The notes beneath the pieces were generated by a model, which saw only the letters and a list, made by a program, of their open reading frames with translations, ran no database searches and was not told where the DNA came from. From the NCBI GenBank assembly GCA_050011295.1, contig JBEKJJ010000003.1, positions 14,406 to 78,405 of the forward strand: DNA of 64,000 nucleotides, given 5' to 3'. Made by a program: the position numbers and the translations under genes. Numbering within the stretch: position 1 is the stretch's first letter; each line of letters opens with the position of its first letter. This document shows, one piece after another, positions 3,395 to 59,559 of the stretch. The stretch is from Bryobacteraceae bacterium. Its GTDB lineage: Bacteria; Acidobacteriota; Terriglobia; Bryobacterales; Bryobacteraceae.

Positions 3395-3496
3395 CGGTTC
3401 TTCAGTTCCTCAGTTCTTCGGTTCTTTGGTTCCTGGCTTCCGCAGTTGCCCAGGGAGACGAACCGAGGAACCGACGAACCGAAGAACTGATGAACC
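3395..3496. repeat. Long imperfect palindrome built from 8-nt GGTTCYTC / GARGAACC units
   Basis: The left arm is five GGTTCTTC-like octamers and the right arm is five GACGAACC-like octamers. The reverse complement of the right arm matches the left arm at about 6-7 of 8 positions per unit. It fills the gap between the permease stop (3503) and the regulator ATG (3389). Confidence 0.7.
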
Positions 3497-3502
3497 GTGG
3501 TG

Positions 3503-5956
3503 TCATTCGTATCTTAGCGCGATCATCGGGTCTACCCGCGTCGCGCGGCGCGCGGGAATGTAGCTGGCTGCGAATGCTACCGCTGCCAGCAGCATGGAAA
3601 CCGAGGTCAATGTCAACGGGTCCCAAGGCTTTACGTCGAACAGCAGGCTGGCCATCACGCGAGTCAAAGCCAATGCCCCAGCGGCGCCCACCGCGAGTCC
3701 GATCAAAACTAGCGCCATGCCCTGCCGGACAATCAACTGCAGAACATCAGCGGCCCGCGCTCCCAACGCCATGCGGATTCCGATCTCGTGCGTGTATTGC
3801 GACACTGAATACGACATCACGCCGTAGATGCCGATGGAAGCGAGCAGCAGAGCTAATCCAGCGAAGGCGGCCAACAATAGCATGTTGAAACGCCGCGGAG
3901 CCACGGATTCTGATAGCACGTCCTGCATGGTCCGCACCTGGAACAGCGGCACTTCGGGATCCAGCGATCGCACGATTTGGCGCAGGTTGGAGACGATTGC
4001 CGCGGGATCCGACGAGGTGCGGACCGCGAGGTAGAACCCGTGTATCGATGAATCCTGCGGCATCTGTGGGATTGGCAGATAAACGCCTGGGCCGATGTCG
4101 GCAGCGATATTGTTCTGTTTCAGGTCGGCTACTACTCCGACCACTGTATGCCAGGTCCGCGTGGAATCGGCCGGCCCCCACTTGAATCTCTTTCCCAGGG
4201 CGTCCTGATTGGGCCAGTAGCGGCGCGCCATCGATTCGTTGATAACCGCAACAGGCGGACTCTTTTGGCTGTCGGACTCGGCAAACAAGCGTCCCCTCAG
4301 GAGTGAAATCCCCAGCGTGCGATGGAAGCTGGGCGTAACTCCGGCGAAGAATGCCGTAGTCAGCGATTTCTCGCCGGTGTCCGCTCGTCCCTCCGGCGTA
4401 ATCACAATGTCCCACTGGCCCATCAAGGGCAGCCCAGTGGCTGCGGCGGCCGATTTTACATCCGGCAGCGACTGCGCGTGCTCCAGCAACACGTTGTAGA
4501 ACGATTGCACTTGAACTTTGCTTTCGTATCTGGCTTCAGGCAAAGCAATGGACATCGTCAGCAAATGATCGGGATTAAAGCCAAGCGGTACGCCGCGCAG
4601 TTTCACAAAGCTTCGTAAGAGCAAACCCGCGCCTGCCAGCAATACCAGCGAGAGAGCCACTTCCGCCACCACCAAAACACTGCGTACACGGCTGCGGCGG
4701 AAAGCGGCGGCGCCACGGCTGCCTTCTTTCAGATCGGTATTGAGATTAGCTTTTGACACCTGCAGCGCAGGCGCCAATCCGAATAGCAAGCCCGTGAGAA
4801 TTGAAATCGCAAATGTGAAAGCCAATACCGGCAGATTCAACTCGGCCTCCGCTAATCGCGGAACATCTCCGGGGCTGAACTGGATCATCAGTTGAGTCAG
4901 CCAATATGCAATCAGCAATCCCACGGCGCCTCCCACCAGGCCGAGCAGAAGGCTTTCGGTGAGCAACTGCCTCACCAGCCGGAGCCGTCCGGCGCCCAGC
5001 GCGGTCCGAATAGCTACTTCACGGCGCCGGCCAGCCGCCTTCGCGAGCAGCAGATTTGCAACGTTGGCGCATCCAATGAGCAGGACGAATCCAACCGCAC
5101 CGAGTAGCACTAGCAGCAGAGTTTTGACATTTCCAACCGCCTGCTGATGTAGATCGGTCACAAAACCGTCGAGCGAAAACAGCTTTTGGATCGCCGGCGG
5201 ATAAGTTTGATAAATGCGGCGGGAAATACGATCGATGTCGGCGCTAGCTTGCTGGACGCTCACTCCCGGCCTGCGCCTGGCTACCACCGAAATGTTGAAA
5301 TTGTCGCCACGCCCCTCCGGGCCAACTCGATCGGGAGAAAAAGCAATGGGAACCCAGAATTCGGGCGCCGGGCCGCTCAATAAACCCTGCGTTGGAAATT
5401 CAAACTCTTTCGGCATCACGCCGATCACTTGGTGCGGCTTCTGGTCCAGCACCAGCGTCTTGCCGAGCACATTGGGATCGGAGCCGAAGCGGCGTTGCCA
5501 GGCCCCGTAGCTAAGTACGACTATATTGTCATGTCCGAACTGGTCCTCAGCGGTGGTGAACATACGCCCGCGCAGCGGCGAAATGCCGAGCAGCGGAAAC
5601 AGATTGGCGGACACGGCTGCGCCGGACACGCGCTCGGAGCCAGTACGCGTGGTCAACGTGTAGCTATCGTTGTAAAAAGCGGCGGCGTTCTCGAGAGTCT
5701 GCGTTTGGTCGCGATAATCGATGTAATCCGGAGCTGAACACGGCAGTTGCGGGTAGGCAGTTGCGCCAGTGAGCCGCTGCCACACCATCACCAGCCGGTC
5801 GGGATGTTGATAGGGAAGCGGCCGGAGCAGCACAGCATTGACGACGCTGAAAATCGCGGTGTTCGCGCCAATCCCGAGCGCCAGCGCCAGGACGGCGATC
5901 ATGGTGAAGCCGGGTTTCTTCAGAAGCATCCGGACGGCATAGCGTAGGTCCTGCAT
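3503..5956 (-). CDS. ADOP-family duplicated FtsX/MacB-type ABC permease
   Basis: 817 aa. N-terminus [18 protein letters not shown], two MacB-periplasmic-domain/FtsX halves, C-terminal [11 protein letters not shown]. The architecture matches the acidobacterial duplicated orphan permease family (TIGR03434). Confidence 0.9.
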
Positions 5957-9180: not shown

Positions 9181-9222
9181 GTTTCTCGTTTCTAGTTCCT
9201 GGTTTCTAGTTTCTGGTTCCTG
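9181..9222. repeat. Heptamer array (GTTYCTN)x6 abutting the permease start codon
   Basis: The plus strand reads GTTTCTC GTTTCTA GTTCCTG GTTTCTA GTTTCTG GTTCCTG. On the coding (minus) strand this is CAGGAAC CAGAAAC TAGAAAC CAGGAAC TAGAAAC GAGAAAC, then G, then ATG. Confidence 0.75.
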
Positions 9223-9328: not shown

Positions 9329-9412
9329 ATCACAACTTATGACTGGTCAGTTAGTTACAGGCGGGACCTGTTCGGTTGTGGGACGGGTGACGACGGAAAC
9401 GCACAGGGGAAA

Positions 9413-9494
9413 CCGTTTCTGGTTTCTGGTTCATGGTTTCTGGTTTGCCTCGGTAGCTAGAACCAGAAACTAGAAACCAGAAACTAGGAACTGG
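9413..9494. repeat. Heptamer-periodic palindrome: (GGTTTCT)n, loop, (AGAAACY)n
   Basis: Left arm CCGTTTCTGGTTTCTGGTTCATGGTTTCTGGTTTG, right arm CTAGAACCAGAAACTAGAAACCAGAAACTAGGAACTGG. The arms are largely complementary. The element overlaps the stop codon of the ATPase gene (9484-9486), so it could be an intercistronic hairpin. No U-tract follows. Confidence 0.7.
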
Positions 9495-10167
9495 TATCCG
9501 TGATCCAACCATCCACGATGTTAATAACCCGGTTGCCGTACTCTGCGTTCCTCTCATTGTGGGTTACCTGGACAATGGTGGTGCCGCCTTCGTTCAGTTT
9601 TTTGAAGAGATCCATGATCTCTTTGCCTTGGCTGGAATGCAGGTTGCCGGTGGGTTCGTCGGCCAGAATGATTTTCGGGCTGGCTACAATGGCGCGCGCG
9701 ATGGCCACCAGTTGCTGTTGGCCGCCGGAGAGCTGATTGGGATACAGATCCTTTTTGCCGACGATCTGGAAGCGGTCCAGAACGTCGCAGACGATGCTGT
9801 CTCGTTCACCCTTTTTGATGTTGCGATAGGAGAGCGGAATGTCGAGGTTTTCGTAGACGGTGAGCGAATCCAGCAGATGATAGCTCTGAAATACGAAGCC
9901 GAAATATTTCTTGTACAGCTCCATGCGGTCTTTCTTGTTGAGCTTGTGGATGGCATGCTCTATCAGGTAATATTCGCCGGTCCAGGAGCTGTCGTGCATC
10001 CCGAGTAAGTGCAGCAGCGTGGATTTGCCCGCCCCGGAAGGTCCCATGATGGAGACAAATTCGCCTTCCTTGATTTCGGCGTTGATGCGGCGGAGTACAA
10101 AAGTCTTGGTCGGCCCGTGCTCGAAATATTTCTCGACGTTCCGAAGAGTGAGGATCGGTGAACTCAT
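9484..10167 (-). CDS. ABC transporter ATP-binding protein (MacB/LolD-type)
   Basis: 227 aa. Walker A GPSGAGKST, signature LSGGQQQ, Walker B ILADEPTGNL, H-loop VTHN. Confidence 0.92.
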   Translation of the reverse strand: MSSPILTLRNVEKYFEHGPTKTFVLRRINAEIKEGEFVSIMGPSGAGKSTLLHLLGMHDSSWTGEYYLIEHAIHKLNKKDRMELYKKYFGFVFQSYHLLDSLTVYENLDIPLSYRNIKKGERDSIVCDVLDRFQIVGKKDLYPNQLSGGQQQLVAIARAIVASPKIILADEPTGNLHSSQGKEIMDLFKKLNEGGTTIVQVTHNERNAEYGNRVINIVDGWITDTSS

Positions 10168-25847: not shown

Positions 25848-25944
25848 GTGGGGCAGGGCCGTGCCCTGCCAGGTGCACCAACGATTGCCTGAGAGCCGGA
25901 CAGTTGTCCCCTCAAGGTCCCGGCAGGGCATGGCCCTGCCCCAC
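25848..25944. repeat. REP-like element: two inverted copies of a self-palindromic about 26-mer
   Basis: GTGGGGCAGGGCCGTGCCCTGCCAGG (25848-25873) is mirrored by CCCGGCAGGGCATGGCCCTGCCCCAC (25919-25944). Each copy contains a GGCAGGGC/GCCCTGCC hairpin. The element starts 3 nt after the cytochrome stop. Confidence 0.75.
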
Positions 25945-37452: not shown

Positions 37453-39090
37453 ATGCGTCTGGGCGAAATCCTGATTGAGCGTAAGCTGATCTCGGAAGAA
37501 GATCTGGAGCGCGCACTCGAGCTGCAGAAAGAGCGTGGAGATAAGATCGGCAAGACACTGGTCGACATGGGCTTTGTGGCCATGCGCGACGTACTGGCGG
37601 CGCTGGCGGATCAGTTGGGCGTGCCGCTGGTTGCGATCGAGGGTCCGCCCTCGGTTTCCCCCGAGACGGAAGCACTCTCTCCACGATTCCTGCGTCAGTC
37701 CCGCTGCCTTCCGGTGGGCCGCGATGACCATACGGTCACGCTCGCGATGGCCGATCCGCTGGATGTAGAAACTATCGCGGCGGTTCGCAACTGCACTGGC
37801 CTGAAGATCAGTACGGTGCTGGCGGCTGAGCAGGAAATCCTCGACGCCATCGACAAATATTACGGCCAGTCGGCGCGCGGGGAGACGGATCTGCTGGCCG
37901 ACGGCGCGGAGGCATCCGAGGATCTGGAGCACCTGCGCGACATGGCGAGTGAAGCGCCCGTCATCCGCCAAGTGAACGCGATCATCGCTCAGGCGGTGGA
38001 AAAGCGTGCCAGCGATATTCATCTGGAGCCGTTCGAGAAGGAGTTCCGCATCCGTTACCGCGTGGATGGCATACTTTACAACCAGGATCCGCCGCCGCGC
38101 GAGATGAAGGCCGCCATGATTTCGCGCGTGAAGCTGATGGCCAAGCTCAATATCGCTGAGCGCAGGCTCCCGCAGGACGGACGCATCAAAATCAAGACGC
38201 TGGGCCGCGAAGTGGATCTGCGCGTTTCGACTTTGCCGACGCTTTACGGCGAGAGCGTGGTGATGCGCCTGCTGGACCGCTCAGCCGGAGATTTCTACGA
38301 TCTGGGCCGGTTGGGCTTCGATCAACACATGTTCAGCCGCATGGAGCATTTCACGTCCATGCCGCACGGTATTTTTCTGGTCACCGGACCGACCGGCAGC
38401 GGCAAATCCACCACGCTCTACTCGGCGCTGAAGCGGATTAATTTAAGCGACAAGAAGATCATCACCATTGAGGACCCGGTGGAATACCAGATGGATGGGA
38501 TTAACCAGATCCATGTGAACACGCAGATTGGGCTGACGTTTGCTTCCGGGTTGCGGCACATTGTGCGTCAGGATCCGGACGTGATTATGGTGGGCGAAAT
38601 TCGCGACCGGGAGACGGCCGATATTGCCATTCGCGCGTCGCTCACCGGCCACTACGTATATTCGACGCTGCATACCAACGATGCGCCCAGTGCTGTTACG
38701 CGGCTCACCGATATGGGCGTGGAAAACTACCTCATCAGTTCATCTTTGGTAGCAGTGCTGGCGCAGCGGCTGGTCCGGCTGATCTGCGATCGTTGCAAGG
38801 CGCCGGACGGAACGCGCATCGCGCCGGATGGCGAGACGGTGCCGTGTTTCCGCGGCCGCGGTTGCGAGAACTGCTTCGGGTCAGGCTATACGGGGCGCGT
38901 GGGAATCTTCGAGCTGATGGAGTTGAATGATGAGATCCGCAAGCAGATCATGCGCGGCGACGACGCACTGGCGATCACGGCCGTGGCGCGCCGCAACGGA
39001 ATGCGCAGCTTGCGGGAAGATGGCTGGCTGAAGATATCGCACGGCCTGACGACGCCGGATGAGGTAATGCGTGTCACGCAAGAACTGTAG
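37453..39090 (+). CDS. gspE: Type II secretion ATPase GspE (T2SSE_N + hexameric ATPase)
   Basis: N-terminal MRLGEILIERKLISEEDLERALELQ (T2SSE_N). Walker A GPTGSGKST, GEIRD, and a tetracysteine cluster CDRC...CENC. Confidence 0.92.
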   Translation: MRLGEILIERKLISEEDLERALELQKERGDKIGKTLVDMGFVAMRDVLAALADQLGVPLVAIEGPPSVSPETEALSPRFLRQSRCLPVGRDDHTVTLAMADPLDVETIAAVRNCTGLKISTVLAAEQEILDAIDKYYGQSARGETDLLADGAEASEDLEHLRDMASEAPVIRQVNAIIAQAVEKRASDIHLEPFEKEFRIRYRVDGILYNQDPPPREMKAAMISRVKLMAKLNIAERRLPQDGRIKIKTLGREVDLRVSTLPTLYGESVVMRLLDRSAGDFYDLGRLGFDQHMFSRMEHFTSMPHGIFLVTGPTGSGKSTTLYSALKRINLSDKKIITIEDPVEYQMDGINQIHVNTQIGLTFASGLRHIVRQDPDVIMVGEIRDRETADIAIRASLTGHYVYSTLHTNDAPSAVTRLTDMGVENYLISSSLVAVLAQRLVRLICDRCKAPDGTRIAPDGETVPCFRGRGCENCFGSGYTGRVGIFELMELNDEIRKQIMRGDDALAITAVARRNGMRSLREDGWLKISHGLTTPDEVMRVTQEL

Positions 39091-39164
39091 CGCACGCACT
39101 CGTGCGTGCCGCGTTCACACTCGTGTGAACGCTGGGCGTGTGTTCGCAAGAGTGCGTGCGCTAC
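39087..39164. repeat. REP cluster (left flank)
   Basis: GTAGCGCACGCACTC (39087-39101) pairs with GAGTGCGTGCGCTAC (39150-39164). Inner palindromes are GCACGCAC/GTGCGTGC and GTTCACAC/GTGTGAAC. The element contains the TAG stop of gspE and the TAG stop of the RAYT gene. Confidence 0.8.
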
Positions 39165-39715
39165 GACAGCCGTTCACGCCATTTTGGGTTGGCGCTCGAC
39201 CAGGGATAGTCCTCGATTTGTGCCACCAACCCCGCCTTTACAGGATTCCTCTCGATGTACCGCGCGATCCGGTTCCATTCACTTTCATCCCGCACCCAGC
39301 GATCGTACGATTCGCGCCTCCAGAACGGCTCTCCTGTGCGTCCCAACAACTTATTCGCTTCCCGCGCCGTAAATCCCTTGAGCGATTGAAGGAGCTTGCT
39401 CGGCGATATCAAAGGAAGCAGCAGCACGTGGACGTGGTTTGCCATGATCGCAAACGGTCCAAGCTGGTAATGACTGAGTTCCCTGCCTTTAAAGAGCGAA
39501 TCGATTATCCTTTGCGCGATCGTGTCCTGCTTGAGGAACATGGGGCCGGAGCGAGTTTCGTCGAGGTAGCGGTCCATCCACACGAAGGCTTCGCCAGCAG
39601 TACTTTTGCCCGGCGGCGCGAACCGGGACGCTGGCAGGCTGCCGTGCAAGTGCCAAGTGACGAACAGCCAGCGGTTCTCTGGGTAGATGTGGGGAAGGCG
39701 GCGTTGAATTTCCAC
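39161..39715 (-). CDS. REP-associated tyrosine transposase (RAYT, IS200/Y1_Tnp-like)
   Basis: RRLPHIYPENRWLFVTWHLHGSLP...FAIMANHVHVLLLP...LKGFTAREANKLLGRTGEPFWRRESYDRWVRDE...YIERNPVKAGLV carries the HxH and catalytic-Tyr-region motifs. The ORF-track ATG 39874 would translate REP DNA, so GTG 39715 is proposed. Start is uncertain. Confidence 0.75.
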   Translation of the reverse strand: MEIQRRLPHIYPENRWLFVTWHLHGSLPASRFAPPGKSTAGEAFVWMDRYLDETRSGPMFLKQDTIAQRIIDSLFKGRELSHYQLGPFAIMANHVHVLLLPLISPSKLLQSLKGFTAREANKLLGRTGEPFWRRESYDRWVRDESEWNRIARYIERNPVKAGLVAQIEDYPWSSANPKWRERLS

Positions 39716-39751
39716 TTTACGATTAGTGCCATTTGGTCCCCAAAAATCTCC

Positions 39752-39864
39752 GTAGCGCACGCACTCGTGCGTGCCGTGTTCGCACACTTGCGAACAGAAG
39801 GACTTGGAAGACTTCACGACGTTCACACGAGTGTGAACGCGGCACGCACGAGTGCGTGCGCCAC
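39752..39864. repeat. REP cluster (right flank)
   Basis: GTAGCGCACGCACTCGTGCGTGCCG ... TGTTCGCA-CAC-TTGCGAACA ... GTTCACACGAGTGTGAAC ... CGGCACGCACGAGTGCGTGCGCCAC. The outer arms are reverse complements with one mismatch. Confidence 0.8.
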
Positions 39865-39872
39865 GATCCGCC

Positions 39873-41081
39873 ATGAATAATTTCTACTTCAGGGCCGTGG
39901 CTTCGGACGGACAGCTTCGCACCGGGACTATTCATGCCGAGACTGAGCGCTGGGTGGCGCAGGAATTGCGCCGGCAGGGACTCACGCCCGTGTATGTCGG
40001 CAGCGAGCCGAAAAAGGGATTTGAGTTCAAGCTGCCGGGCTTCAAGGGCGGTAAGCGCAAGGACGTTCTTTTCTTCACGCAGGAATTATCGACGCTGCTG
40101 AATGCCGGCGTGCCGCTGGATCGCGCGCTCACAATCACGAGCGAGCTTACCGAGCGCGCCAGCTTTCGATTGTTGGTAGTGGATATTCTGCGCGTAGTAA
40201 AGGGCGGCAAGTCGCTGGCCGACAGCCTGGCAACCCATCCGGATTATTTCTCCGAACTGTTCATCAATATGGTGCGTGCGGGCGAGGCCAGCGGATCTCT
40301 CGCCGTGGTCTTTGAACGCTTATCGGAGTTCGAGCGCACGCGCGATGATTTGCGCAGCTACATTCTTTCTTCCCTGGCTTATCCGAGTTTGCTGGTGGTG
40401 GTGGGCATTTCTTCCATCCTGGTGCTCATGAATTTCGTGGTCCCGCGGTTTGCCATGGTGTTCGAGCAATCGCACATCCCGATCCCGGGCCCGACCAAGG
40501 TTCTGATCGACGTGAGTTACTTTTTGCGGAGCTATGGATGGATCGGCTTAACATTACTGATTCTCACTGCTATAGGCTTGTATGGCTTTGTCCGCACGCC
40601 TGGTGGCAGATTGTGGTGGGACACGCTGCGGCTGCGAATTCCAGTGCTGGGTGATGCACTGCGGAAAGCGGAAACGGCGCGTTTCGCCCGAGCTATGGGA
40701 ACGTTGGTCTCGAACAGCGTTCCCTTGGTGCAATCCATCGGAATCGCGGGAGCGACATTGAACAACCAGAAAATCGCCAAATCTCTCGAAATCGTGGCGA
40801 CTGGAGTGAAGCGCGGCGAAGGTATCGCGAGTCCTCTGAAACGCGCCGGGCAATTTCCGCCCCTGGCCGGTCATCTTCTGAGCGTAGGCGAAGAGACCGG
40901 GCGGCTGGACGCAATGTTCGTTCGAATGGCCGACATATACGATGCCGACACGCGCACGGCCATCCGCCGTTTTACGTCCTTGTTCGAGCCGCTGATCATT
41001 CTGACAATGGGATTGATCGTAGGCACATTGATCTTGAGTATTCTGGTTGCGATTGTCAGTATCAACGATGTTGCGGTGTAG
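39873..41081 (+). CDS. gspF: Type II secretion inner-membrane platform protein GspF
   Basis: MNNFYFRAVASDGQLRTGTI..., two T2SSF repeats (ELSTLLNAGVPLDRAL; ARAMGTLVSNSVPLVQSI), three TM segments. ATG 39873 lies 9 nt after the REP cluster, with no obvious Shine-Dalgarno. Confidence 0.9.
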   Translation: MNNFYFRAVASDGQLRTGTIHAETERWVAQELRRQGLTPVYVGSEPKKGFEFKLPGFKGGKRKDVLFFTQELSTLLNAGVPLDRALTITSELTERASFRLLVVDILRVVKGGKSLADSLATHPDYFSELFINMVRAGEASGSLAVVFERLSEFERTRDDLRSYILSSLAYPSLLVVVGISSILVLMNFVVPRFAMVFEQSHIPIPGPTKVLIDVSYFLRSYGWIGLTLLILTAIGLYGFVRTPGGRLWWDTLRLRIPVLGDALRKAETARFARAMGTLVSNSVPLVQSIGIAGATLNNQKIAKSLEIVATGVKRGEGIASPLKRAGQFPPLAGHLLSVGEETGRLDAMFVRMADIYDADTRTAIRRFTSLFEPLIILTMGLIVGTLILSILVAIVSINDVAV

Positions 41082-41093
41082 CGGAGGTAGCAA

Positions 41094-41522
41094 ATGAAGA
41101 GACGAAATCGACGAGAAGCGGGCGTAACGCTCATCGAAATGATGGTGGTGGTGGTGATCATCGCGCTGTTCGCGGCGCTGGTGCTGCCCAGGATGTTGGG
41201 GCAAGCGGACCGGGCCAAGGTAACGGCTGCGCGTGCGCAAATCAATGCTTACATGACAGCGTTGGGCTCCTACAAGCTGGATAACGGCGTGTACCCGACC
41301 ACCGAGCAAGGCTTGCAAGCGCTACGGGAGAAGCCGGAGAACGCTACCAACTGGCAGGGACCGTATACGGACAAGGAGATCGGCAATGATCCCTGGCACA
41401 ATCCGTACGTCTACCACTTTCCCGGAGAACACGGCGATGCCCCCGACATAATCTCTTACGGCGCCGACGGCCAGCCGGGCGGGGATGGAGTCAATGCCGA
41501 CATTGTCAGTTGGAAAAACTAG
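41094..41522 (+). CDS. gspG: Major pseudopilin GspG
   Basis: Prepilin signal MKRRNRREAG/VTLIEMMVVVVII with E at +5. The T2SSG domain is ...YKLDNGVYPTTEQGLQAL...DPWHNPYVY...SYGADGQPGG. Confidence 0.92.
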   Translation: MKRRNRREAGVTLIEMMVVVVIIALFAALVLPRMLGQADRAKVTAARAQINAYMTALGSYKLDNGVYPTTEQGLQALREKPENATNWQGPYTDKEIGNDPWHNPYVYHFPGEHGDAPDIISYGADGQPGGDGVNADIVSWKN

Positions 41523-42042
41523 AGCGCCGTTTCTCGTTTCTCGTTTCTCGTTTCTCGTTTCCGAACCAGAAACCAGAAACCAGAAACCAGAAACCGGGCT
41601 CACCCTCATCGAAATGATCGTAGTAGTCGGGATCATTTCCTTGATCGTTGGAGTCAGCTTGCCGGCGGTTACGTCCGGCATCGATTCGCTGCGCCTCAAC
41701 GCGGCCACCACCAGCGTGGTTAGCTTCGTGAATTCGGGACTCAATCGCGCGGAGCGGCGCCAGCAGGCTGTGGAGATCACTATTTCGAAGAGCGAAAACG
41801 CGCTCACCATGCGCTCCACCGAGCCAGGCTTCTTCCGCAAACTCGAACTGCCCGAGGGCGTCTCCATTACGCATATTCTTCCGGAGTTGCCAGAGAATCC
41901 CGATGCGCCGCGAGTATTTATGCTCTATCCCGGTGGCGCGCCGCCACGCTTCGGAGTCCAGCTTATAAACCGCAAAAATGTGGAACGGATCGTGCGCGTG
42001 GACCCCATCACGGGAGTCCCTCGCGTGGAGCAGCCGCAATGA
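41494..42042 (+). CDS. gspH: Minor pseudopilin, GspH/FimT-like (start uncertain)
   Basis: Prepilin motif G/LTLIEMIVVVGIISLIVG with E at +5. The only in-frame starts are ATG 41485, ATG 41494 and TTG 41503. All lie inside the gspG 3' end and give a 30-36 aa leader that is translated from the heptamer array (...FLVSRFSFLVSEPETRNQKPETG). Confidence 0.7.
   Translation: MPTLSVGKTRAPFLVSRFSFLVSEPETRNQKPETGLTLIEMIVVVGIISLIVGVSLPAVTSGIDSLRLNAATTSVVSFVNSGLNRAERRQQAVEITISKSENALTMRSTEPGFFRKLELPEGVSITHILPELPENPDAPRVFMLYPGGAPPRFGVQLINRKNVERIVRVDPITGVPRVEQPQ
41528..41597. repeat. Heptamer-periodic palindrome: (CGTTTCT)x4 + CGTTTCC, then GAACCAG + (AAACCAG)x3 + AAACCGG
   Basis: Ten 7-nt units (70 nt) starting 6 nt after the gspG stop. 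The arms pair with one C-C mismatch per unit. The element lies inside the only open frame leading into the GspH-like prepilin motif. Confidence 0.85.
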
Positions 42043-42470
42043 AGCAGCGCGGATTCACGCTGCTGGAAGTGCTGGTGGCTACGCTCGTCCTGGCGATAGC
42101 GGTGAGTGGACTGATGTCGGCTCTCTCAACATCTATGGCGAACGCCGCACGTCTCACCGATTACGACCGCGCCGCGCTGCTGGGCCGCCAGAAGATGGAC
42201 GAGTTGCTGATCGCGAGCAAGTTGCCGAAGCTGACGCCCTTTGAAGGAATCTGGGGTCCTGAGGTAGCAGGCGACCTGAAGGCTGGATGGCGTGCGCGCC
42301 TCTCTCCGTTCGAAATGCCTCCCACGGCGGGACCAGGCACGCCCTATCTAGAGCGCGTGGAGCTGGAGATCTGGTGGATGAACGGCGAGAAACGCCGGAC
42401 GCTCAACCTGGAAGCTTTTCGGAGATCAGTAATCACGCTGGAGGATCGGGCGGCGGGGATCGGGCGATGA
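42039..42470 (+). CDS. gspI: Minor pseudopilin GspI-like
   Basis: MKQRG/FTLLEVLVATLVLAIAV prepilin signal. 143 aa. ATGA overlaps on both sides. Confidence 0.8.
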   Translation: MKQRGFTLLEVLVATLVLAIAVSGLMSALSTSMANAARLTDYDRAALLGRQKMDELLIASKLPKLTPFEGIWGPEVAGDLKAGWRARLSPFEMPPTAGPGTPYLERVELEIWWMNGEKRRTLNLEAFRRSVITLEDRAAGIGR

Positions 42471-43240
42471 GGAAAATCGTTGCTGGTGGCTGGTGGCTGG
42501 TGGCTGGTTCGGAACGAGAAACGAGAAACGAGAAACGAGAAACGGGTTTTACTTTACTCGAGTTACTGATCGCTATTACTTTATTCAGCTTGCTCTCGGT
42601 CGCAATAGTCATCTCGTTGCGCGTGGCCCTGAGCGCGATGAACAAAGTGGACACCCGGCTGATGAGCAACCGGCGCGTGGCCGGGGTGGAGCGCATCCTC
42701 GAACAGCAGGTGGCTGGGATTATGCCGGTCACCGCGGATTGCCAGAGCGGCGGCGAGGGACCTTCGGCGCGCATTGCATTTTTTCAGGGCGAGCCGCAGG
42801 CCATGCGATTGGTTTCCAGTTACTCCCTGCAGGAAGGTTCGCGGGGGTTGCCGATGATTCTGGAATACCTGGTGATTCCCGGCGAAAATGACGTAGGCGT
42901 GCGGCTGGTGGTGAACGAACATTGGTACACCGGACCGCGCGGCGCCGGCCAATTCTGCGCGCCGGGTGGTCCTGGCGCGGTATTTATTCCCATTCAGACA
43001 GGACCCACTTCTTTTGTGCTGGCCGATAAGCTGGCCTATTGCCGCTTCAGCTTTCGCGAGCTACTGCCGCCGCCTGAATCCGCTCGCTGGGAGCCGCTCT
43101 GGACCAACCAACAGTACCTTCCGAATGCCGTTCGCATCGAGATGGCGCCACTCGATCCCAGCGCGGCGCGGTTGGAGCCGGTGACGCTCAGCATGCCGAT
43201 TCATGTCACGCGTCTGCCTATGGAGGAGTATGCGTATTGA
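42467..43240 (+). CDS. gspJ: Minor pseudopilin GspJ-like
   Basis: Leader MRKIVAGGWWLVAGSERETRNEKRETG/FTLLELLIAITLFSLL with E at +5. About 230-aa mature part, a typical GspJ size. ATGA overlap with gspI. Confidence 0.75.
   Translation: MRKIVAGGWWLVAGSERETRNEKRETGFTLLELLIAITLFSLLSVAIVISLRVALSAMNKVDTRLMSNRRVAGVERILEQQVAGIMPVTADCQSGGEGPSARIAFFQGEPQAMRLVSSYSLQEGSRGLPMILEYLVIPGENDVGVRLVVNEHWYTGPRGAGQFCAPGGPGAVFIPIQTGPTSFVLADKLAYCRFSFRELLPPPESARWEPLWTNQQYLPNAVRIEMAPLDPSAARLEPVTLSMPIHVTRLPMEEYAY
42482..42544. repeat. Heptamer array (GCTGGTG)x3 + GCTGGTT + CGGAACG + (AGAAACG)x4
   Basis: Nine 7-nt units give 63 nt, or 21 in-frame codons, between the ATG and the prepilin cleavage motif of gspJ. The AGAAACG run is the exact reverse complement of the CGTTTCT run at 41528-41555. 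Confidence 0.85.
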
Positions 43241-44273
43241 CCGGCGGGGCAGCGCATTATTGGCCGTGCTCTGGCTCACGGCAGCCTTGGCCGCAATCGC
43301 TTTCTCAGTGGCCAGCACGGTGCGAGCGGAGACCGAACGCACCTCCACGGCGGTGGACTCCCTCCACGCCTATTACCTGGCGACCGGCGCCATCAGCCGG
43401 GCGATGCTTCGGATCGAGTGGGGGCCGGCCTTCCGAAATCCGGACGGTACGTCGATGTTCGACGGATCACGCCCGGTAGTCGCAATGCGATTCGAATTTC
43501 CTACTGGCTCGGCAGTGGTGAAGCTGATTCCGGAGACGGCCAAGCTGAACGTGAACCAGGCGCCGGCCGAGCAGTTGATGAACCTGCTGATGGCGCTGGG
43601 GACCACGCCCGCGCAGGCGCAGGCCATCACCCTCGGCATCCTGGACTGGCGGTCCGGCTCGCCCGGCGGGTCCTTCACCGAGTTCGACCAATATTATCTG
43701 ACGCTCACGCCGTCTTTTCGGGCCCGGCATGCGTCTTTTCAGGAGATTGAAGAATTACTGCTGGTGCGCGGGGTAACACGGGACTTGTTTTACGGAAGCT
43801 ACATACACGATCCACAAGGGAACCTGGTGCGCCGCGCGGGGCTCCGGGATTGTCTTTCGGTTTACGGATCGTCGGCCATGATCGACGTGAACACGGCTGA
43901 ACCGGCGGTGATGCAGGCCATTGGAGTGAGTGCCGGAGCGGTGGCTGCCATCGTGGCGCTGCGAAAGACTACGCCGATTGCGTCGTCCGATCAAATCTCC
44001 GGATTCTCGGATGGCTCAACGGGATTCTCACGGCTGCAGCGAACCCAGACGACCATGGCCACTCTCCGCGCCACGGCCAGAGTGCGCCTGGCCGACGGGC
44101 AATACTCCGATTTGAGCCGATCTGTTGAGGCGCTGGTGAAATTTCTCGGACCCGAATGGAATCCACCATTCCACATCATGCGCTGGTATGACCAGGTTTG
44201 GTCAGATCAGGTTTGGTCAGATCAGGTTTGGTCAGATCAGGTTTTATCAAATCAGGCGGCTGCCTCGCAATGA
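43230..44273 (+). CDS. gspK: Minor pseudopilin-like GspK
   Basis: MRIDRRGSALLAVLWLTAALAAIAF N-terminus (non-cleaved pilin-like). HhH-like segments (VNQAPAEQLMNLL..., DVNTAEPAVMQAIGVS). GGAGGAG lies before ATG 43230. Confidence 0.8.
   Translation: MRIDRRGSALLAVLWLTAALAAIAFSVASTVRAETERTSTAVDSLHAYYLATGAISRAMLRIEWGPAFRNPDGTSMFDGSRPVVAMRFEFPTGSAVVKLIPETAKLNVNQAPAEQLMNLLMALGTTPAQAQAITLGILDWRSGSPGGSFTEFDQYYLTLTPSFRARHASFQEIEELLLVRGVTRDLFYGSYIHDPQGNLVRRAGLRDCLSVYGSSAMIDVNTAEPAVMQAIGVSAGAVAAIVALRKTTPIASSDQISGFSDGSTGFSRLQRTQTTMATLRATARVRLADGQYSDLSRSVEALVKFLGPEWNPPFHIMRWYDQVWSDQVWSDQVWSDQVLSNQAAASQ
44190..44249. repeat. 15-nt tandem repeat x4 (GAYCAGGTTTGGTCA)
   Basis: Encodes DQVWS DQVWS DQVWS DQVLS at the extreme C-terminus of GspK, about 20 nt before the gspL-like start. 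Confidence 0.85.
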
Positions 44274-47520: not shown

Positions 47521-49881
47521 GTGCGCGCCTCTAAGGAACTCGGGCAAAACGGAGCGCGGCGCGGGCCAGTTCCTGGTCCGTTTTGCGGTGCGCGCCGCGC
47601 CCTTTGCGCTTCTTGCTGGTATCGATGTGGGTTGCTGGCGTTAGTCCTGTCGGCCGCCGCCTTTCCGCAGATTCCGAGATCGCATCCCACTCCGGAGGTG
47701 CCACCCGTTAATCCCAACCAGCAGCAACCGGCCCCTTCTTCAACAACTCCACCGGGGCCATTGCCCGCCCTGAGCGGGCCGCCGACAAACTACGGTGGCG
47801 TGAATCTCAATAACGTACAGTTGACGGAAGTCATCGACATGCTGGCCCGCCAGCTGAAGATAAACTACATTCTCGATCCGCGTGTAAAGGGTGGCGTGAT
47901 TCTGAATACCTACGGCGAAACCAAGAACATTGAGCCAAAATCGCTACTCGAAGCCATTCTCCGCATCAACGGCGCCGGCATGGTGAAGGAGGGTGAGCTG
48001 TATCGCATTCTGCCTCTGGCCGATATTTCACATCACGCCCTGAAGCCTGAAAAAGCCACCGATTCCAGCAACGTCCCCGATGACGACCAGATCATGCTGA
48101 ATCTGATGTTTCTCAAGTTTGTCACTTCGAGCGAGCTGATGAAGGTGCTGACGCCCTTCATCGGCGAGAACGCATCCATTTATGAGTACCCGCCCGCCAA
48201 TCTATTGCTGATATTGGACAGCCGGAGGAACATGCGCCGGCTGATGGATCTGGTGGCCATGTTCGACAGCGATCAACTGGCCAATCAACGAGTTCATGTT
48301 TTCGAAGTAAAGAACGGCCGACCTTCGGATCTCGCCAAGGAATTGGAAGCCATTGTCAAATCGATCTCGTTGTCCGAGAAATCGTCCCCCATTAAATTTC
48401 TTCCGATCGACCGCATTAATACCATCATGGCAGTGGCTCCGAATCCTGGAGCGTTCATCGAAGTTGGGAAATGGCTCGATAAGTTGGACGTTCCGGTGAA
48501 ATCGCGCGCGGGGGCTGTCCAAAGCTATGTCTATCGGGTTCGCTACGGCGACGCTCAGTCCATTGGATGTTCCATCAATGCGCTTTACACCCAGTTCGCG
48601 ACACCGGGACAAGCATACGGCGGCGGCATGGCCACTTGCATGGCGCAGAGCGGAATGGGCGGCATGTACGGCGGTGGGATGGGCGGCGGTGGTGGCATGG
48701 GTGGTGGGATGTACGGCGGTGGGATGGGCGGTGGTGGACAATACGGCCAGTATGGCGGTGGCATGTACGGTAGTGGTGGACAATACGGCGGCGGATACGG
48801 TGCGGGCGGGAATTACGGCAGCGGTGCGTACGGCGGTGGCTATCAGCAATATCCTAACGCCACCGGACAAACCGCCAGTGGTGTGACAATACCAGGCGCT
48901 CCAAACGCTCCGGCAACCGGGATCCCTGGCGCGCCCGACCTCACCGGCAATTATCTGGGGAACGCACAGTATCCAGGCGCGATGTTGGCTCACATGCCAC
49001 GCGTGGTGGCAAATCCATTCAACAACACCCTGCTGATCCAGGCCACTCCTCAGGAATACGACAATATTTTGACCCTGCTAAAAGATCTGGATATTCCACC
49101 GCGCCAGGTCTTGATCGAAGCGAAGATATACTCGGTTGACTTGACGCACGCGTTCTCGAGCGACGTCTCCGCCATGCTGCAGCAAATATCCGGAAGCACC
49201 TCGCACAGTTTCCTGGCAAACTTCGGCGCCGGCGTGACTAATCTTTCGGGAGCGGCCCTGGTGGGAAAAAGCCGCGAACTGCTGGCTGCCGTGCAGTTGC
49301 AGGAATCTGAGAGCCGCGCCAAAGTGCTTTCAGCTCCTTCCGTGATTGCCACCGACAGCATCGCGGCCAGCATCAACGTCGGCACGGAGGTTCCCACGCT
49401 TTCGGCGCAGGCCGTGACCGGAGTCCAGTCCGGAGGCAATTCCCTGTTTGCCAACTCCATATCGAATGTGAGTACGGGAGTTACGTTGAATGTACTCGCG
49501 CGCGTGACCCCGACCGGCGTCGTTACCATGGTGATCAATCAGCAAGTGAGCGACCCAACGCCAACTACTACCAGCGGGATTCAATCCCCGTCCTTCGACA
49601 ACAAATCGATTCAGACTCAAATCACAGTACAGGACGGCGACACTATCGCGATTGGGGGCATCATTTCAGAAACCAACACTCTGAATAGCTCCGGCATCCC
49701 GCTGCTGCACCGGATCCCGTATCTGGGCGTGCTCTTCGGGACTCACTCTTATTCCAAATCGCGTTCCGAGCTGATCATATTTATGACTCCCCGGGTGATC
49801 TATGACAGCAACCAGATGTCCGACGCCACCGATGAGCTAAAAAGCCGGCTGAAGGATCTGAAGAAGTCCGTCAAAGAATGA
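47521..49881 (+). CDS. gspD: Secretin GspD/PilQ family with internal Gly/Met/Tyr-rich insert
   Basis: N-domains (VQLTEVIDMLARQLKINYILDP; HVFEVKNGRPSDLAKELEAIV; YRVRYGDAQSI) and the secretin core (VTLNVLARVTPTGVVTM...TVQDGDTIAIGGII...IPYLGVLFG...ELIIFMTPRVI). GTG start directly after the upstream TAA. Confidence 0.9.
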   Translation: MRASKELGQNGARRGPVPGPFCGARRALCASCWYRCGLLALVLSAAAFPQIPRSHPTPEVPPVNPNQQQPAPSSTTPPGPLPALSGPPTNYGGVNLNNVQLTEVIDMLARQLKINYILDPRVKGGVILNTYGETKNIEPKSLLEAILRINGAGMVKEGELYRILPLADISHHALKPEKATDSSNVPDDDQIMLNLMFLKFVTSSELMKVLTPFIGENASIYEYPPANLLLILDSRRNMRRLMDLVAMFDSDQLANQRVHVFEVKNGRPSDLAKELEAIVKSISLSEKSSPIKFLPIDRINTIMAVAPNPGAFIEVGKWLDKLDVPVKSRAGAVQSYVYRVRYGDAQSIGCSINALYTQFATPGQAYGGGMATCMAQSGMGGMYGGGMGGGGGMGGGMYGGGMGGGGQYGQYGGGMYGSGGQYGGGYGAGGNYGSGAYGGGYQQYPNATGQTASGVTIPGAPNAPATGIPGAPDLTGNYLGNAQYPGAMLAHMPRVVANPFNNTLLIQATPQEYDNILTLLKDLDIPPRQVLIEAKIYSVDLTHAFSSDVSAMLQQISGSTSHSFLANFGAGVTNLSGAALVGKSRELLAAVQLQESESRAKVLSAPSVIATDSIAASINVGTEVPTLSAQAVTGVQSGGNSLFANSISNVSTGVTLNVLARVTPTGVVTMVINQQVSDPTPTTTSGIQSPSFDNKSIQTQITVQDGDTIAIGGIISETNTLNSSGIPLLHRIPYLGVLFGTHSYSKSRSELIIFMTPRVIYDSNQMSDATDELKSRLKDLKKSVKE

Positions 49882-56060: not shown

Positions 56061-56849
56061 TTACGCAACTTGAATGGACCCGCTGGGCGGCTGAGTGGGA
56101 TCATATTGGATAATTCCGCCACCCGTTATGCCCGGAGCTGCGCTCACCGGCTGCTGCAACGCTGAAGGAACCCACGTATAGCCGTACGATTCTCTGGCCG
56201 CAGTTACCTTAGCCGGGTCCCATCCCCACACCATAATGGGGACATCGATTGAGTAACCCTCGTTCGCCAGCTGTGTCGCGAGTTGTTGTCGTTGGTCCAT
56301 ATCCTGGATTCCACGAAGTTGCTGAACGGCTGCCGGCTGGTTAGACCAGTAGATATCGTCAGCAGTTTCGGTGCTGGAAGCCGCCGCAGGCGCGGAGGCA
56401 GGGATATTTGGCGCGGCTGGGGGAGCGACAACCGCAGGGGTGGGGGCTACCACGGCCGGTATTACGGTTGCCAGATTCCCAGTAGCGGCGGGCGCTTGAC
56501 TAACACTCGCATTTTGCCCCCCGGTCGCATTTTGCCCCCCGGTCGCATTTTGCCCCCCGGCGGGAGTCTGAGTCGCGGCAGGAGTTTGACTCGTGGCAGG
56601 AGTTTGGCTCGGCGTGTCCTCAATAGTGAGATTAATGCTGTTTGGATTGATTCCGAGCTTCGATAGCGTTTCCGACAGCGCCTCCGAGAGGAGCGCCGTA
56701 AACGATTGAGCCGAAGCCGATGAAAGTTGAGTCGTCTGGGTTGAGCTGGCGGCAGCTCCACTGGTGGTCCCGGTGCTGCCCAAAGTCACATCGATGTTAA
56801 TCATTCCGTGTAAAGCCTCTACACCTTGGCTAGGCACGGGAAATGCCAA
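56061..56849 (-). CDS. Hypothetical S/T/A/P-rich protein with tandem GGQNAT repeats
   Basis: 262-aa ORF with TTG start 56849 or ATG 56804. No signal peptide seen. Internal repeats SQTPAT/SQTPAA/TQTPA and GGQNAT x3. Conserved-looking C-terminal part (YWSNQPAAVQQLRGIQD...YSIDVPIMVWGWDP). Confidence 0.55.
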   Translation of the reverse strand: MAFPVPSQGVEALHGMINIDVTLGSTGTTSGAAASSTQTTQLSSASAQSFTALLSEALSETLSKLGINPNSINLTIEDTPSQTPATSQTPAATQTPAGGQNATGGQNATGGQNASVSQAPAATGNLATVIPAVVAPTPAVVAPPAAPNIPASAPAAASSTETADDIYWSNQPAAVQQLRGIQDMDQRQQLATQLANEGYSIDVPIMVWGWDPAKVTAARESYGYTWVPSALQQPVSAAPGITGGGIIQYDPTQPPSGSIQVA

Positions 56850-59506: not shown

Positions 59507-59559
59507 CTTACGGTCGCGGCTCGGCAACTGGAACGCCGATTCTGAGCCGCGACCGTAAG
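59507..59559. repeat. REP-like palindrome (16-bp stem, 21-nt loop)
   Basis: CTTACGGTCGCGGCTC (59507-59522) pairs perfectly with GAGCCGCGACCGTAAG (59544-59559). Intergenic, upstream of msrP. Confidence 0.75.

What the first reader, a model, noticed from the sequence alone, without database searches (positions are those of the whole stretch)
41485..42544. Inverted heptanucleotide-repeat elements inside the leader-coding regions of two minor pseudopilin genes, bracketing gspH-gspI
- At 41528-41597, ten 7-nt units, (CGTTTCT)x4, CGTTTCC, GAACCAG, (AAACCAG)x3, AAACCGG, lie between the gspG stop and the G/LTLIE cleavage motif of the GspH-like gene.
- At 42482-42544, nine units, (GCTGGTG)x3, GCTGGTT, CGGAACG, (AGAAACG)x4, lie between the gspJ ATG and its G/FTLLE motif.
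- The AGAAACG run is the exact reverse complement of the CGTTTCT run. The two junction regions (CTGGTTCGGAAACGAGAAACG...) match over about 45 nt. The elements are therefore inverted copies about 0.95 kb apart, flanking gspH and gspI.
- Both are translated into atypically long prepilin leaders ending in ETRNQKPETG and ETRNEKRETG.
- A 7-nt unit encodes the same cyclic heptapeptide in all frames, but gain or loss of one unit shifts the downstream frame.
- The geometry therefore permits two things: slipped-strand on/off switching of the minor pseudopilins, or recombinational inversion of the gspH-gspI segment.
- I know of no T2SS or T4P leader described with such embedded arrays.
Basis: partly seen in the sequence, partly recalled or inferred. 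Interest (0 to 1): 0.72.

Follow-up and report, generated by a model that had tools for sequence, protein, structure and literature searches.

The report
Heptamer hairpin repeats inside pseudopilin leaders
Two small hairpin-forming repeats, of a kind scattered between genes in Acidobacteria, sit inside the cleaved-off leader peptides of two type II secretion pseudopilin genes and are read through in frame; they look like fixed, tolerated passengers, not genetic on/off switches.

Summary
Site 1 (41528-41597) and site 2 (42482-42544) are heptamer arrays with a perfect 33-nt inverted match.

The switch interpretation is not supported.
- The arrays belong to a dispersed class of two-armed hairpins, (GTTTCTN)4-5 / (NAGAAAC)4-5. 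Three more copies lie in this window and many occur across Acidobacteriota, mostly between co-directional genes.
- The gspG/gspH and gspI/gspJ genes overlap, so the only dispensable DNA at these junctions is the leader-coding stretch.
- Comparison of about 90 orthologous loci shows the leaders are translated. At gspG/gspH, 47 of 47 loci stay in frame and stop-free from a conserved ATG inside gspG to the Gly(-1) codon, although the inserts range from 4 to 121 nt and come from at least five unrelated palindrome families. gspI/gspJ behaves the same way.
- The gspI leader is never invaded.
- Array lengths are identical in about 30 independent assemblies of this strain, while a nearby 15-nt repeat does vary. 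Four units per arm are kept across species of about 85% identity.
- No out-of-frame allele and no inverted gspH-gspI segment was found.

The most likely effect is at RNA level: a stable hairpin directly after the gspG stop. That step is inferred, not shown.

This is a new variant of known kinds (REP- or RPE-like palindromes and heptamer simple repeats), of moderate interest.

The parts
41094..41522 (+). gspG, the major pseudopilin gene. Its last 29 nt overlap the start of gspH.
   Evidence: Pfam T2SSG 3.4e-40 plus N_methyl.
41494..42042 (+). GspH-like minor pseudopilin gene. The start is taken as the conserved ATG inside the gspG tail (AATGCCGACAT). An alternative in-frame ATG lies at 41485.
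   Evidence: N_methyl motif at residues 36-58 of the 185-aa ORF. This ATG is conserved and in frame in 47 of 47 orthologous loci.
41494..41598 (+). Coding stretch for the 35-aa leader MPTLSVGKTRAPFLVSRFSFLVSEPETRNQKPETG, ending at Gly(-1), codon 41596-41598.
41528..41562 (+). Site 1, left arm: (CGTTTCT)x4 + CGTTTCC.
41563..41597 (+). Site 1, right arm: GAACCAG (AAACCAG)x3 AAACCGG, which is (CAGAAAC)n in another register.
41522..41601 (+). Site 1 hairpin including its flanks. It has 6 of 7 pairs per unit, with a C-C mismatch every seventh position, and begins at the last base of the gspG stop codon.
   Evidence: RNA fold -38 kcal/mol, z = -8.0, 0 of 200 shuffles as good.
42039..42470 (+). GspI-like minor pseudopilin gene with a short canonical leader, MKQRG|FTLLE.
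   Evidence: The leader is short in about 75 orthologs.
42467..43240 (+). GspJ-like minor pseudopilin gene. Its ATG overlaps the gspI stop (ATGA).
42467..42547 (+). Coding stretch for the 27-aa leader MRKIVAGGWWLVAGSERETRNEKRETG, with Gly(-1) at codon 42545-42547. Without the 63-nt array it would read MRKIVG|FTLLE.
42482..42509 (+). Site 2, left arm: (GCTGGTG)x3 GCTGGTT. This is an eroded GTTTCTG-type arm.
   Evidence: Relatives L135, L137 and L138 carry GTTTCTG or GTTGCTG here.
42510..42544 (+). Site 2, right arm: CGGAACG (AGAAACG)x4. It is the exact reverse complement of the site 1 left arm.
   Evidence: 33 nt, 100%. The arm is identical in L011, L012 and L136.
3395..3497 (-). Another member of the hairpin class, with 8-nt units (GGTTCTTC / GAACCGAA). 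It fills the gap between a permease stop (3503) and the ATG of a response-regulator gene (3389).
   Evidence: (-58 to -60 kcal/mol).
9404..9502 (-). Another member, (GTTTCTG)n / (YAGAAAC)n. It overlaps the stop codon of an ABC ATPase gene (9484).
9181..9222 (-). Single-arm array of the same unit, directly against the ATG (9179) of a MacB/FtsX-type permease gene.

Best explanation
The two arrays are copies of a dispersed class of small palindromic repeats. Each is a hairpin with arms built from 4-5 tandem heptamers, (GTTTCTN)n and (NAGAAAC)n. This class normally lies between co-directional genes in Acidobacteriota.

In this type II secretion operon the genes overlap. The gspH start lies inside gspG, and the gspJ ATG overlaps the gspI stop. 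The only dispensable DNA at the two junctions is therefore the stretch that encodes the class III leader peptide.

Shown:
- The repeats sit in those leader-coding stretches.
- They are kept in frame and free of stop codons.
- They are read through as parts of 35-aa and 27-aa leaders.

Inferred: prepilin peptidase removes these leaders, so the mature pseudopilins are unchanged.

The arrays are stable features, not contingency loci. Copy number is fixed within the population and conserved between species.

Inferred: their likely activity is at RNA level. Site 1 forms a stable stem-loop that begins at the gspG stop codon. It probably acts as a decay barrier or translational brake that separates expression of the abundant major pseudopilin from that of the minor ones.

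Inferred: the periodic arms most plausibly arose and are homogenised by replication slippage plus strand-switch copying between arms.
For: A dispersed class:
- The window holds three further arrays of the same unit, in intercistronic positions.
Of 26 two-armed hits, 18 are Acidobacteriota, and those inspected lie between genes, with either arm first.

Insertions:
- Close orthologs have short canonical leaders: MKREAG|FTLLE in L015 and MPTSLAGKTRAG|VTLIE in L154.

Translated:
- At gspG/gspH, 47 of 47 loci are in frame and stop-free from the conserved ATG to Gly(-1), across junctions of 4-121 nt.
- At gspI/gspJ, every locus is in frame from the start codon at the gspI stop (overlapping or adjacent), except L145, where only a TTG and a later ATG are in frame. 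The 13 large inserts, up to 174 nt, all use the overlapping ATGA start.
- Stop-forming TAG-type units make up 2 of 61 units in leader arrays, against 55 of 239 in Acidobacteriota arrays generally.

Stable:
- The arrays are identical in L001-L010, which are 99.8-99.94% identical to the window with 3-13 mismatches. The only indel among them is a 15-nt repeat.
- 23 contigs that encode the same GspI have the same 182-aa and 257-aa neighbours.
- The arms are 100% identical in L012-L014, although the region overall is 85% identical.

Hairpin:
- Site 1 folds at -38 kcal/mol, z = -8.
- The two arms covary at the N position: C/G in L011, G/C in L135, L137 and L138.

Non-random placement:
- About 20 of roughly 55 gspG/gspH junctions and 13 of 69 gspI/gspJ junctions carry palindromic inserts.
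- 0 of about 75 gspH/gspI junctions do.
Against: - No expression data exist, so the RNA-level role is inference.
- No T-run follows the hairpin, so it is not a classical intrinsic terminator.
- Site 2's own hairpin is weak. A local structural role there is doubtful.
- The contrast between the gspH/gspJ leaders and the gspI leader could reflect different tolerance, not selection for hairpins.
- Cleavage of 27-35-aa, partly hydrophobic leaders is untested. Known leaders are 6-26 aa (PMC4471445).
- In L136-L138 the +1 residue of GspH is Met, so a start downstream of the hairpin is possible in those lineages.
- Assemblies are consensus sequences and cannot show minority length variants.
Confidence: 0.62

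Rival explanations
1. Contingency locus. Slipped-strand mispairing adds or removes 7-nt units and switches GspH and/or GspJ on and off by frameshift.
For: - The unit is not a multiple of three and lies between the start codon and the mature protein.
- Leader length differs between species, so the arrays do change over evolutionary time.
- Precedent from general knowledge: CTCTT repeats in the signal-peptide region of Neisseria opa genes.
Against: - Copy number is identical in 10 loci and in 23 contigs from independent samples, while a nearby 15-nt repeat does vary.
- Four units per arm are conserved across lineages of about 78-85% DNA identity.
- No out-of-frame allele was found in 47 gspG/gspH junctions, 69 gspI/gspJ junctions or 120 GspJ proteins. 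The suspects P0029 and P0023 are missed GTG starts.
- The tracts are short, at 4-5 units.
Confidence: 0.06
2. Invertible segment. Recombination between the 33-nt perfect inverted repeats flips gspH-gspI.
For: There is a 33-nt, 100% inverted match 953 nt apart, plus 36 nt at 81%.
Against: - All of the roughly 110 loci examined have gspG, H, I and J on one strand.
- No invertase-type gene was found among the 13 neighbouring ORFs scanned. The nearby Y1/HUH gene is a REP-associated transposase with its own, different REPs.
- The perfect match follows simply from both arms using the same heptamer four times. In L137 the same two sites are not perfect inverted copies.
- Inversion would destroy both genes' expression.
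Confidence: 0.03
3. Long-range RNA duplex. Site 1 and site 2 pair with each other in the operon mRNA and close a loop of about 900 nt containing gspH-gspI. The duplex serves as an RNase III processing stalk or a translational lock.
For: - The minimum-energy fold of 41490-42580 pairs the two sites along their whole length.
- Site 2's local partner arm is eroded, while its right arm stays perfectly complementary to the site 1 left arm in the window, L012 and L136.
- The same palindrome family tends to occupy both junctions in one genome: the heptamer type in the window, L136, L137 and L138 (and L135, partial), and the GGGGCAG type in L186, L187, L189, L191 and L203.
Against: - The prediction is thermodynamic only. 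Local hairpins form first during transcription, and translating ribosomes cover both sites.
- Any two copies of one palindromic family can cross-pair.
- The perfect cross-complementarity is absent in L135 and L137.
- Many lineages have an insert at only one junction.
Confidence: 0.08
4. Purely neutral or selfish passengers. The hairpins have no effect on expression and persist only because leader peptides tolerate them.
For: - Orthologs without inserts are common.
- Site 2's hairpin is decaying.
- At least five unrelated families occupy the same sites, which fits permissiveness.
- In-frame palindromic inserts are known from the Rickettsia palindromic elements (PMC10969869).
Against: - The arms are 100% conserved where the flanks have diverged by 15%.
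- The gspI leader is never invaded.
- A -38 kcal/mol stem directly after a stop codon and 34 nt into the next ORF is unlikely to be inert.
Confidence: 0.3

Closest known systems
REP / BIME elements (repetitive extragenic palindromes) and their RAYT transposases
   Same: - Short dispersed palindromes in intercistronic positions of operons.
- They form stable stem-loops.
- From general knowledge, they affect mRNA stability and translation of flanking genes.
   Different: - The arms are tandem heptamers with a variable seventh base, not a unique sequence.
- There is no conserved GTAG or CGTC head.
- The RAYT in this window (39161-39874) is flanked by a different REP (GTAGCGCACGCACTCGTGCG).
- Here two copies lie inside coding sequence.
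Rickettsia palindromic elements (RPE)
   Same: Dispersed palindromic repeats inserted in frame into protein-coding genes and translated. Orthologs lacking the insert exist (PMC10969869).
   Different: - RPEs are about 150 bp, are not periodic, and stay in the mature protein.
- Here the inserts are 63-70 nt, have a 7-nt period, and sit in a leader that is expected to be cleaved off.
Heptanucleotide simple-repeat arrays
   Same: - A 7-nt unit, 2-6 copies, close to start codons or between cistrons.
- Examples are TAACTGA repeats in Beggiatoaceae, Cyanobacteria and Bacteroidetes (PMC4679880), and paired tandem heptamers or nonamers on opposite strands in Geobacter metallireducens (PMC2700814).
- In G. 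metallireducens a four-heptamer element is also found inside genes.
- Heptamers are reported as the commonest long simple repeats in prokaryotes (Mrazek 2007, as cited in PMC4679880).
   Different: - The unit sequence is different.
- Here the array is systematically paired with its complement to form a hairpin.
- Here it is translated as a prepilin leader.
Phase-variable repeats in signal-peptide coding regions (Neisseria opa CTCTT; from general knowledge)
   Same: Non-triplet repeats lie between the start codon and the mature protein, so a change of one unit shifts the reading frame.
   Different: There is no copy-number polymorphism, there are no OFF alleles, and each arm has only 4-5 units.
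Class III (prepilin) signal peptides
   Same: Gly(-1), a hydrophobic helix and Glu(+5) are present.
   Different: The leaders are 27 and 35 aa, up to about 58 aa in relatives, against the usual 6-26 aa (PMC4471445). They are partly hydrophobic (FLVSRFSFLVS).

Membership tests
Contingency locus (simple-repeat phase variation) | A tract of non-triplet units inside an ORF or promoter | tested here: met
   7-nt units lie between the start codon and the cleavage motif.
Contingency locus (simple-repeat phase variation) | Unit number varies among closely related strains | tested here: not met
   - The arrays are identical in L001-L010 and L216-L219.
- 23 contigs have the same neighbouring proteins.
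- The 15-nt repeat in gspK varies in the same set.
Contingency locus (simple-repeat phase variation) | Out-of-frame (OFF) alleles occur | tested here: not met
   - None occur among 47 gspG/gspH junctions or 69 gspI/gspJ junctions.
- P0029 and P0023 are missed GTG starts.
Contingency locus (simple-repeat phase variation) | Length heterogeneity within a population at read level | not testable with these tools
   Only consensus assemblies are available.
Invertible DNA switch | Inverted repeats flank the segment | tested here: met
   33 nt at 100%, 953 nt apart.
Invertible DNA switch | Both orientations are observed | tested here: not met
   All related loci show a single orientation.
Invertible DNA switch | A site-specific recombinase gene lies next to the segment | tested here: not met
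   - The 13 cluster ORFs scanned are gsp genes plus one REP-associated Y1 transposase.
- The rest of the window was not scanned.
REP / BIME | A dispersed, mostly extragenic imperfect palindrome | tested here: met
   Five arrays lie in 64 kb, and many more in other Acidobacteriota.
REP / BIME | A conserved GTAG or CGTC head and a unique conserved sequence | tested here: not met
   The flanks differ between copies and no conserved tetranucleotide is present. The arms are periodic with a variable N.
REP / BIME | Association with a cognate RAYT | tested here: not met
   The window's RAYT is flanked by a different, GTAG-headed REP.
In-frame palindromic insert (RPE-like) | A multi-copy palindromic element inside an ORF, in frame and stop-free | tested here: met
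In-frame palindromic insert (RPE-like) | Orthologs without the insert exist | tested here: met
   Examples are L015, L016, L154, L207 and many others.
In-frame palindromic insert (RPE-like) | Sequence homology to RPE families | not tested
   Not expected: the phylum is different and the structure is periodic.
Class III prepilin signal peptide | Gly(-1), a hydrophobic N-terminal helix and Glu(+5) | tested here: met
   Pfam N_methyl hits; motifs G|LTLIE and G|FTLLE.
Class III prepilin signal peptide | A short hydrophilic leader of about 6-26 aa | tested here: not met
   The leaders are 35 and 27 aa. The H leader contains FLVSRFSFLVS (PMC4471445).
Class III prepilin signal peptide | Cleavage by a prepilin peptidase | not testable with these tools
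   This needs biochemistry or proteomics.
Rfam structured RNA families | A match at the family's gathering score | tested here: not met
   Only chance, microRNA-like hits appear, far below threshold.

The most novel reading that the evidence does not exclude
The heptamer-array hairpins may be a previously undescribed family of structured intercistronic elements, found across Acidobacteriota and with a dedicated partner such as an RNA- or DNA-binding protein or a mobilising enzyme. On this reading their repeated capture at the gspG/gspH and gspI/gspJ boundaries, but never at gspH/gspI, reflects selection for RNA-level control of pseudopilin stoichiometry. That control might work through a long-range duplex between the two copies that brackets gspH-gspI for processing.
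Probability: 0.2. Interest if true: 0.65.

Novelty: new variant of a known kind. Interest (0 to 1): 0.4.

Why it matters
- Cleavable prepilin leaders can act as safe harbours for palindromic repeats where genes overlap. That explains otherwise puzzling leaders of 27 to about 58 aa in acidobacterial type II secretion systems.
- It warns annotators. Several of these genes were called from internal start codons.
- It documents a class of periodic heptamer hairpins that is widespread in Acidobacteriota and absent from Rfam.
- At least five palindrome families recur at two specific junctions, always in frame. This gives a testable handle on how operon-internal hairpins set the ratio of major to minor pseudopilins.
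- It removes a tempting but unsupported claim of phase variation in an environmental bacterium.

Tried and rejected
- **Arm orientation.** I first thought the (NAGAAAC)n arm always faces the downstream start codon. I dropped this after finding both arm orders in other genomes (L055, L068, L094).
- **Frameshifted alleles.** GspJ homologues lacking the cleavage motif looked like OFF alleles. P0029 (L016/L017) and P0023 (L215) proved to have GTG starts overlapping the gspI stop. P0035 and P0119 were not checked. DNA for P0013 could not be fetched.
- **In situ origin.** L015 carries ATGAAACGAGAAGCGGGT, about 1.7 units, which suggested the array grew from native leader codons. This cannot be told apart from a deletion remnant. 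The same heptamer occurs across the phylum, which argues against a local origin.
- **Intrinsic terminator.** No T-run follows either hairpin.
- **Rfam.** Nothing reached threshold.
- **Literature.** No description of repeats inside prepilin leaders was found. Related heptamer-repeat and in-frame palindrome literature was found.
- **Significance of the 33-nt inverted identity.** It is largely a by-product of both arms using the same heptamer four times.
Full report
**1. Observation**

- Tandem Repeats Finder reports four perfect period-7 arrays: CGTTTCT x4.9 at 41528-41561, AACCAGA x4.6 at 41564-41595, GCTGGTG x3.9 at 42482-42508 and AACGAGA x4.6 at 42513-42544.
- The left arm of site 1 and the right arm of site 2 are perfect reverse complements over 33 nt. 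The adjoining 36 nt match at 81%.
- The heptamer pair GTTTCTNGTTTCT occurs 21 times in the window, against 0.15 expected from shuffles.
- The genes are a type II secretion cluster: gspE, gspF, gspG (Pfam T2SSG, 3e-40), three prepilin-type ORFs, then gspK, a PilM/PilN-like gspL, gspM and a secretin.
- NCBI names close homologues of the GspJ-like protein as Bryobacteraceae.

**2. What the arrays are**

Site 1 is itself a hairpin.
- Its two arms pair at 6 of 7 positions per unit.
- The stem runs from the last base of the gspG stop codon to the first codons of the mature GspH-like protein (41522-41601; -38 kcal/mol, z = -8).
- Site 2 has the same layout, but its left arm has drifted from GTTTCTG to GTGGCTG. 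Its own hairpin is therefore weak (-26 kcal/mol, z = -3.4).

The same architecture occurs elsewhere in the window.
- An 8-nt-unit hairpin at 3395-3497 fills the gap between a permease stop codon and the ATG of a response-regulator gene.
- A heptamer hairpin at 9404-9502 overlaps the stop codon of an ABC ATPase gene.
- A single-arm array at 9181-9222 abuts the ATG of the next permease gene.

- Eighteen of the 26 clearly two-armed hits are Acidobacteriota: Bryobacterales, Terriglobia, Thermoanaerobaculia and Blastocatellia.
- Rfam has no matching family.

The gsp arrays are therefore two members of a dispersed class of intercistronic hairpins.

**3. Are they translated?**

Relatives answer this. 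I collected about 90 distinct orthologous loci, plus about 14 near-identical copies of the window's own locus.

At the gspG/gspH junction:
- The ancestral layout is an overlap. An ATG inside the gspG tail (AATGCCGACAT, window 41494) opens a leader such as MPTSLAGKTRAG|VTLIE, with only 4-25 nt between the gspG stop and the Gly(-1) codon.
- In 47 of 47 loci that keep this ATG, the frame is open and stop-free down to Gly(-1). The junction ranges from 4 to 121 nt.
- About 20 junctions carry an inserted palindrome from at least five unrelated families:
  - heptamer hairpins;
  - a REP of the GTTCACA...GTGAACGCGGCACGCA type;
  - a CCGCGACCGTGAGGGAG type;
  - a GGGGCAGACC...GGTCTGC type;
  - others.

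At the gspI/gspJ junction:
- The start codon overlaps or abuts the gspI stop (ATGA, GTGA or TAATG).
- Every locus is in frame from that start, except L145, where only a TTG and a later internal ATG are in frame. The 13 large inserts, up to 174 nt with folds down to -120 kcal/mol, all use the overlapping ATGA start.
- Close orthologs without the array have canonical leaders, such as MKREAG|FTLLE in L015.

Stop-forming TAG-type units make up 2 of 61 units in leader arrays, against 55 of 239 in Acidobacteriota arrays generally.

The arrays are therefore read through. They give leaders of 35 aa (GspH-like) and 27 aa (GspJ-like), compared with the usual 6-26 aa (PMC4471445). Removal of these leaders by a prepilin peptidase is inferred, not shown.

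**4. Switch hypotheses**

Phase variation:
- Ten loci from different metagenomes are 99.8-99.94% identical to the window over 13 kb, with 3-13 mismatches. Both arrays are identical in all ten. The only indel among them is one unit of a 15-nt repeat at the gspK/gspL overlap.
- Twenty-three contigs that encode the identical GspI have the same 182-aa and 257-aa neighbours, and the arrays are exact in the four that were fetched.
- The right arm of site 2 has four units in the window, L011, L012, L136, L137 and L138. The two perfectly complementary arms are 100% identical in L012-L014, although the surrounding region is only 85% identical.
- The only apparent frameshift candidates were gene-calling errors at GTG starts.

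Inversion:
- All loci have gspG, H, I and J on one strand.
- No invertase-type gene was found among the cluster ORFs scanned.
- The nearby Y1 transposase is a REP-associated enzyme with its own, different REPs.
- The 33-nt inverted identity follows largely from both arms using the same heptamer four times. In L137 the two sites are not perfect inverted copies.

Neither switching nor inversion is supported. Rare variants cannot be excluded from consensus assemblies.

**5. How it probably works**

The inserts are not randomly placed.
- Palindromes occupy about 20 of roughly 55 gspG/gspH junctions and 13 of 69 gspI/gspJ junctions.
- None occupies any of about 75 gspH/gspI junctions, where the leader stays MKQRG-like.
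- In intact copies the two arms covary at the variable position: C with G in L011, and G with C in L135, L137 and L138.

Either hairpins are favoured at these two boundaries, or the GspI leader is unusually intolerant of insertions.

My best reading is that these are tolerated passengers whose real activity is in the mRNA. A stable stem directly after the gspG stop, 34 nt into gspH, would act as a decay barrier or translational brake between the abundant major pseudopilin and the minor ones. This is inference from what REP-type hairpins do in other bacteria. No T-run follows the hairpin, so it is not a classical terminator.

The minimum-energy fold of 41490-42580 pairs site 1 with site 2 and closes a loop around gspH-gspI. 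This is a thermodynamic prediction only. Any two copies of one palindrome family can cross-pair in this way.

The periodic arms, the concerted changes within an arm and the fixed number of about four units are best explained by slippage plus strand-switch copying between arms. This too is inference.

**6. Comparison with known systems**

- **REP/BIME elements.** They share the position and the hairpin. They differ in having a conserved GTAG or CGTC head and a unique, non-periodic sequence.
- **Rickettsia palindromic elements.** They are also in-frame, translated palindromes, but they stay in the mature protein (PMC10969869).
- **Heptamer simple repeats near start codons.** TAACTGA repeats occur in Beggiatoaceae (PMC4679880). 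Paired tandem repeats on opposite strands and a four-heptamer element occur in Geobacter metallireducens (PMC2700814).

I found no report of such repeats inside prepilin leaders.

**7. Verdict**

The reading as a translated long leader is supported, and the switch and inversion readings are not. This is a new variant of known kinds, of moderate interest.

Noticed in passing
window 39087-39865: A REP-associated tyrosine transposase gene (39161-39874, minus strand) sits between gspE and gspF. It is flanked by GTAG-headed REP hairpins at 39087-39164 and 39751-39865. In the relative L016, gspE and gspF abut with no such gene. The same REP family appears translated (RSHECERGTQECVRH) inside gspJ and gspH leaders of other relatives.
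   Followed up: partly
window 44193-44256: A 15-nt tandem repeat (CAGGTTTGGTCAGAT x4.3) lies at the gspK/gspL overlap. It encodes DQVWS repeats at the GspK C-terminus. It is the only indel among ten near-identical strains (GspK of 342 or 347 aa), so it is a real copy-number polymorphism.
   Followed up: partly
window 56507-56611: Two adjoining 18-nt tandem arrays: TCGCATTTTGCCCCCCGG x3 (perfect), then CGGCAGGAGTCTGACTCG x3 (86%). Context and meaning were not examined.
   Followed up: no
L136 1058, L137 1048, L138 755 (gspH Gly codon positions): In three hairpin-bearing relatives the residue after the cleavage site of GspH is Met (ATG). Translation could therefore also start just downstream of the hairpin and give a leaderless pseudopilin. 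Gene callers chose that start in L012-L014.
   Followed up: partly
L158 about 1380-1613: The gspJ leader region of this relative runs into a long tandem array of units of about 24-27 nt (CTTGTGCTTCCCTTTGCACTACCG-like), which continues to the end of the contig.
   Followed up: no
window 48669-48789: The secretin gene contains a Gly/Met-rich low-complexity stretch (GGMGGGG...) encoded by imperfect 12-42-nt repeats.
   Followed up: no
L016 9030-9075; L144 about 520-560: Relatives without a hairpin carry a direct duplication of about 14 nt of the gspG tail (TAGTTGGAAAAACT) at the gspG/gspH junction. It duplicates GKT in the GspH leader. This is another sign that the junction is indel-prone but is always kept in frame.
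   Followed up: partly
window 25848-25944 and 59507-59559: Two further GC-rich palindromes resemble the repeat families inserted in pseudopilin leaders of more distant relatives: GTGGGGCAGGGCCGTGCCCTGCC... and CTTACGGTCGCGGCTC / GAGCCGCGACCGTAAG.
   Followed up: no
L021 about 4560-4860 (minus strand): A Thermoanaerobaculia locus carries a long composite hairpin built from several different heptamer arrays in series (GAGGCTG/GAGGCTA, GAGAGAC, GAGAAAC and their complements), just upstream of an ATG. Periodic heptamer hairpins are therefore not limited to one unit sequence.
   Followed up: no
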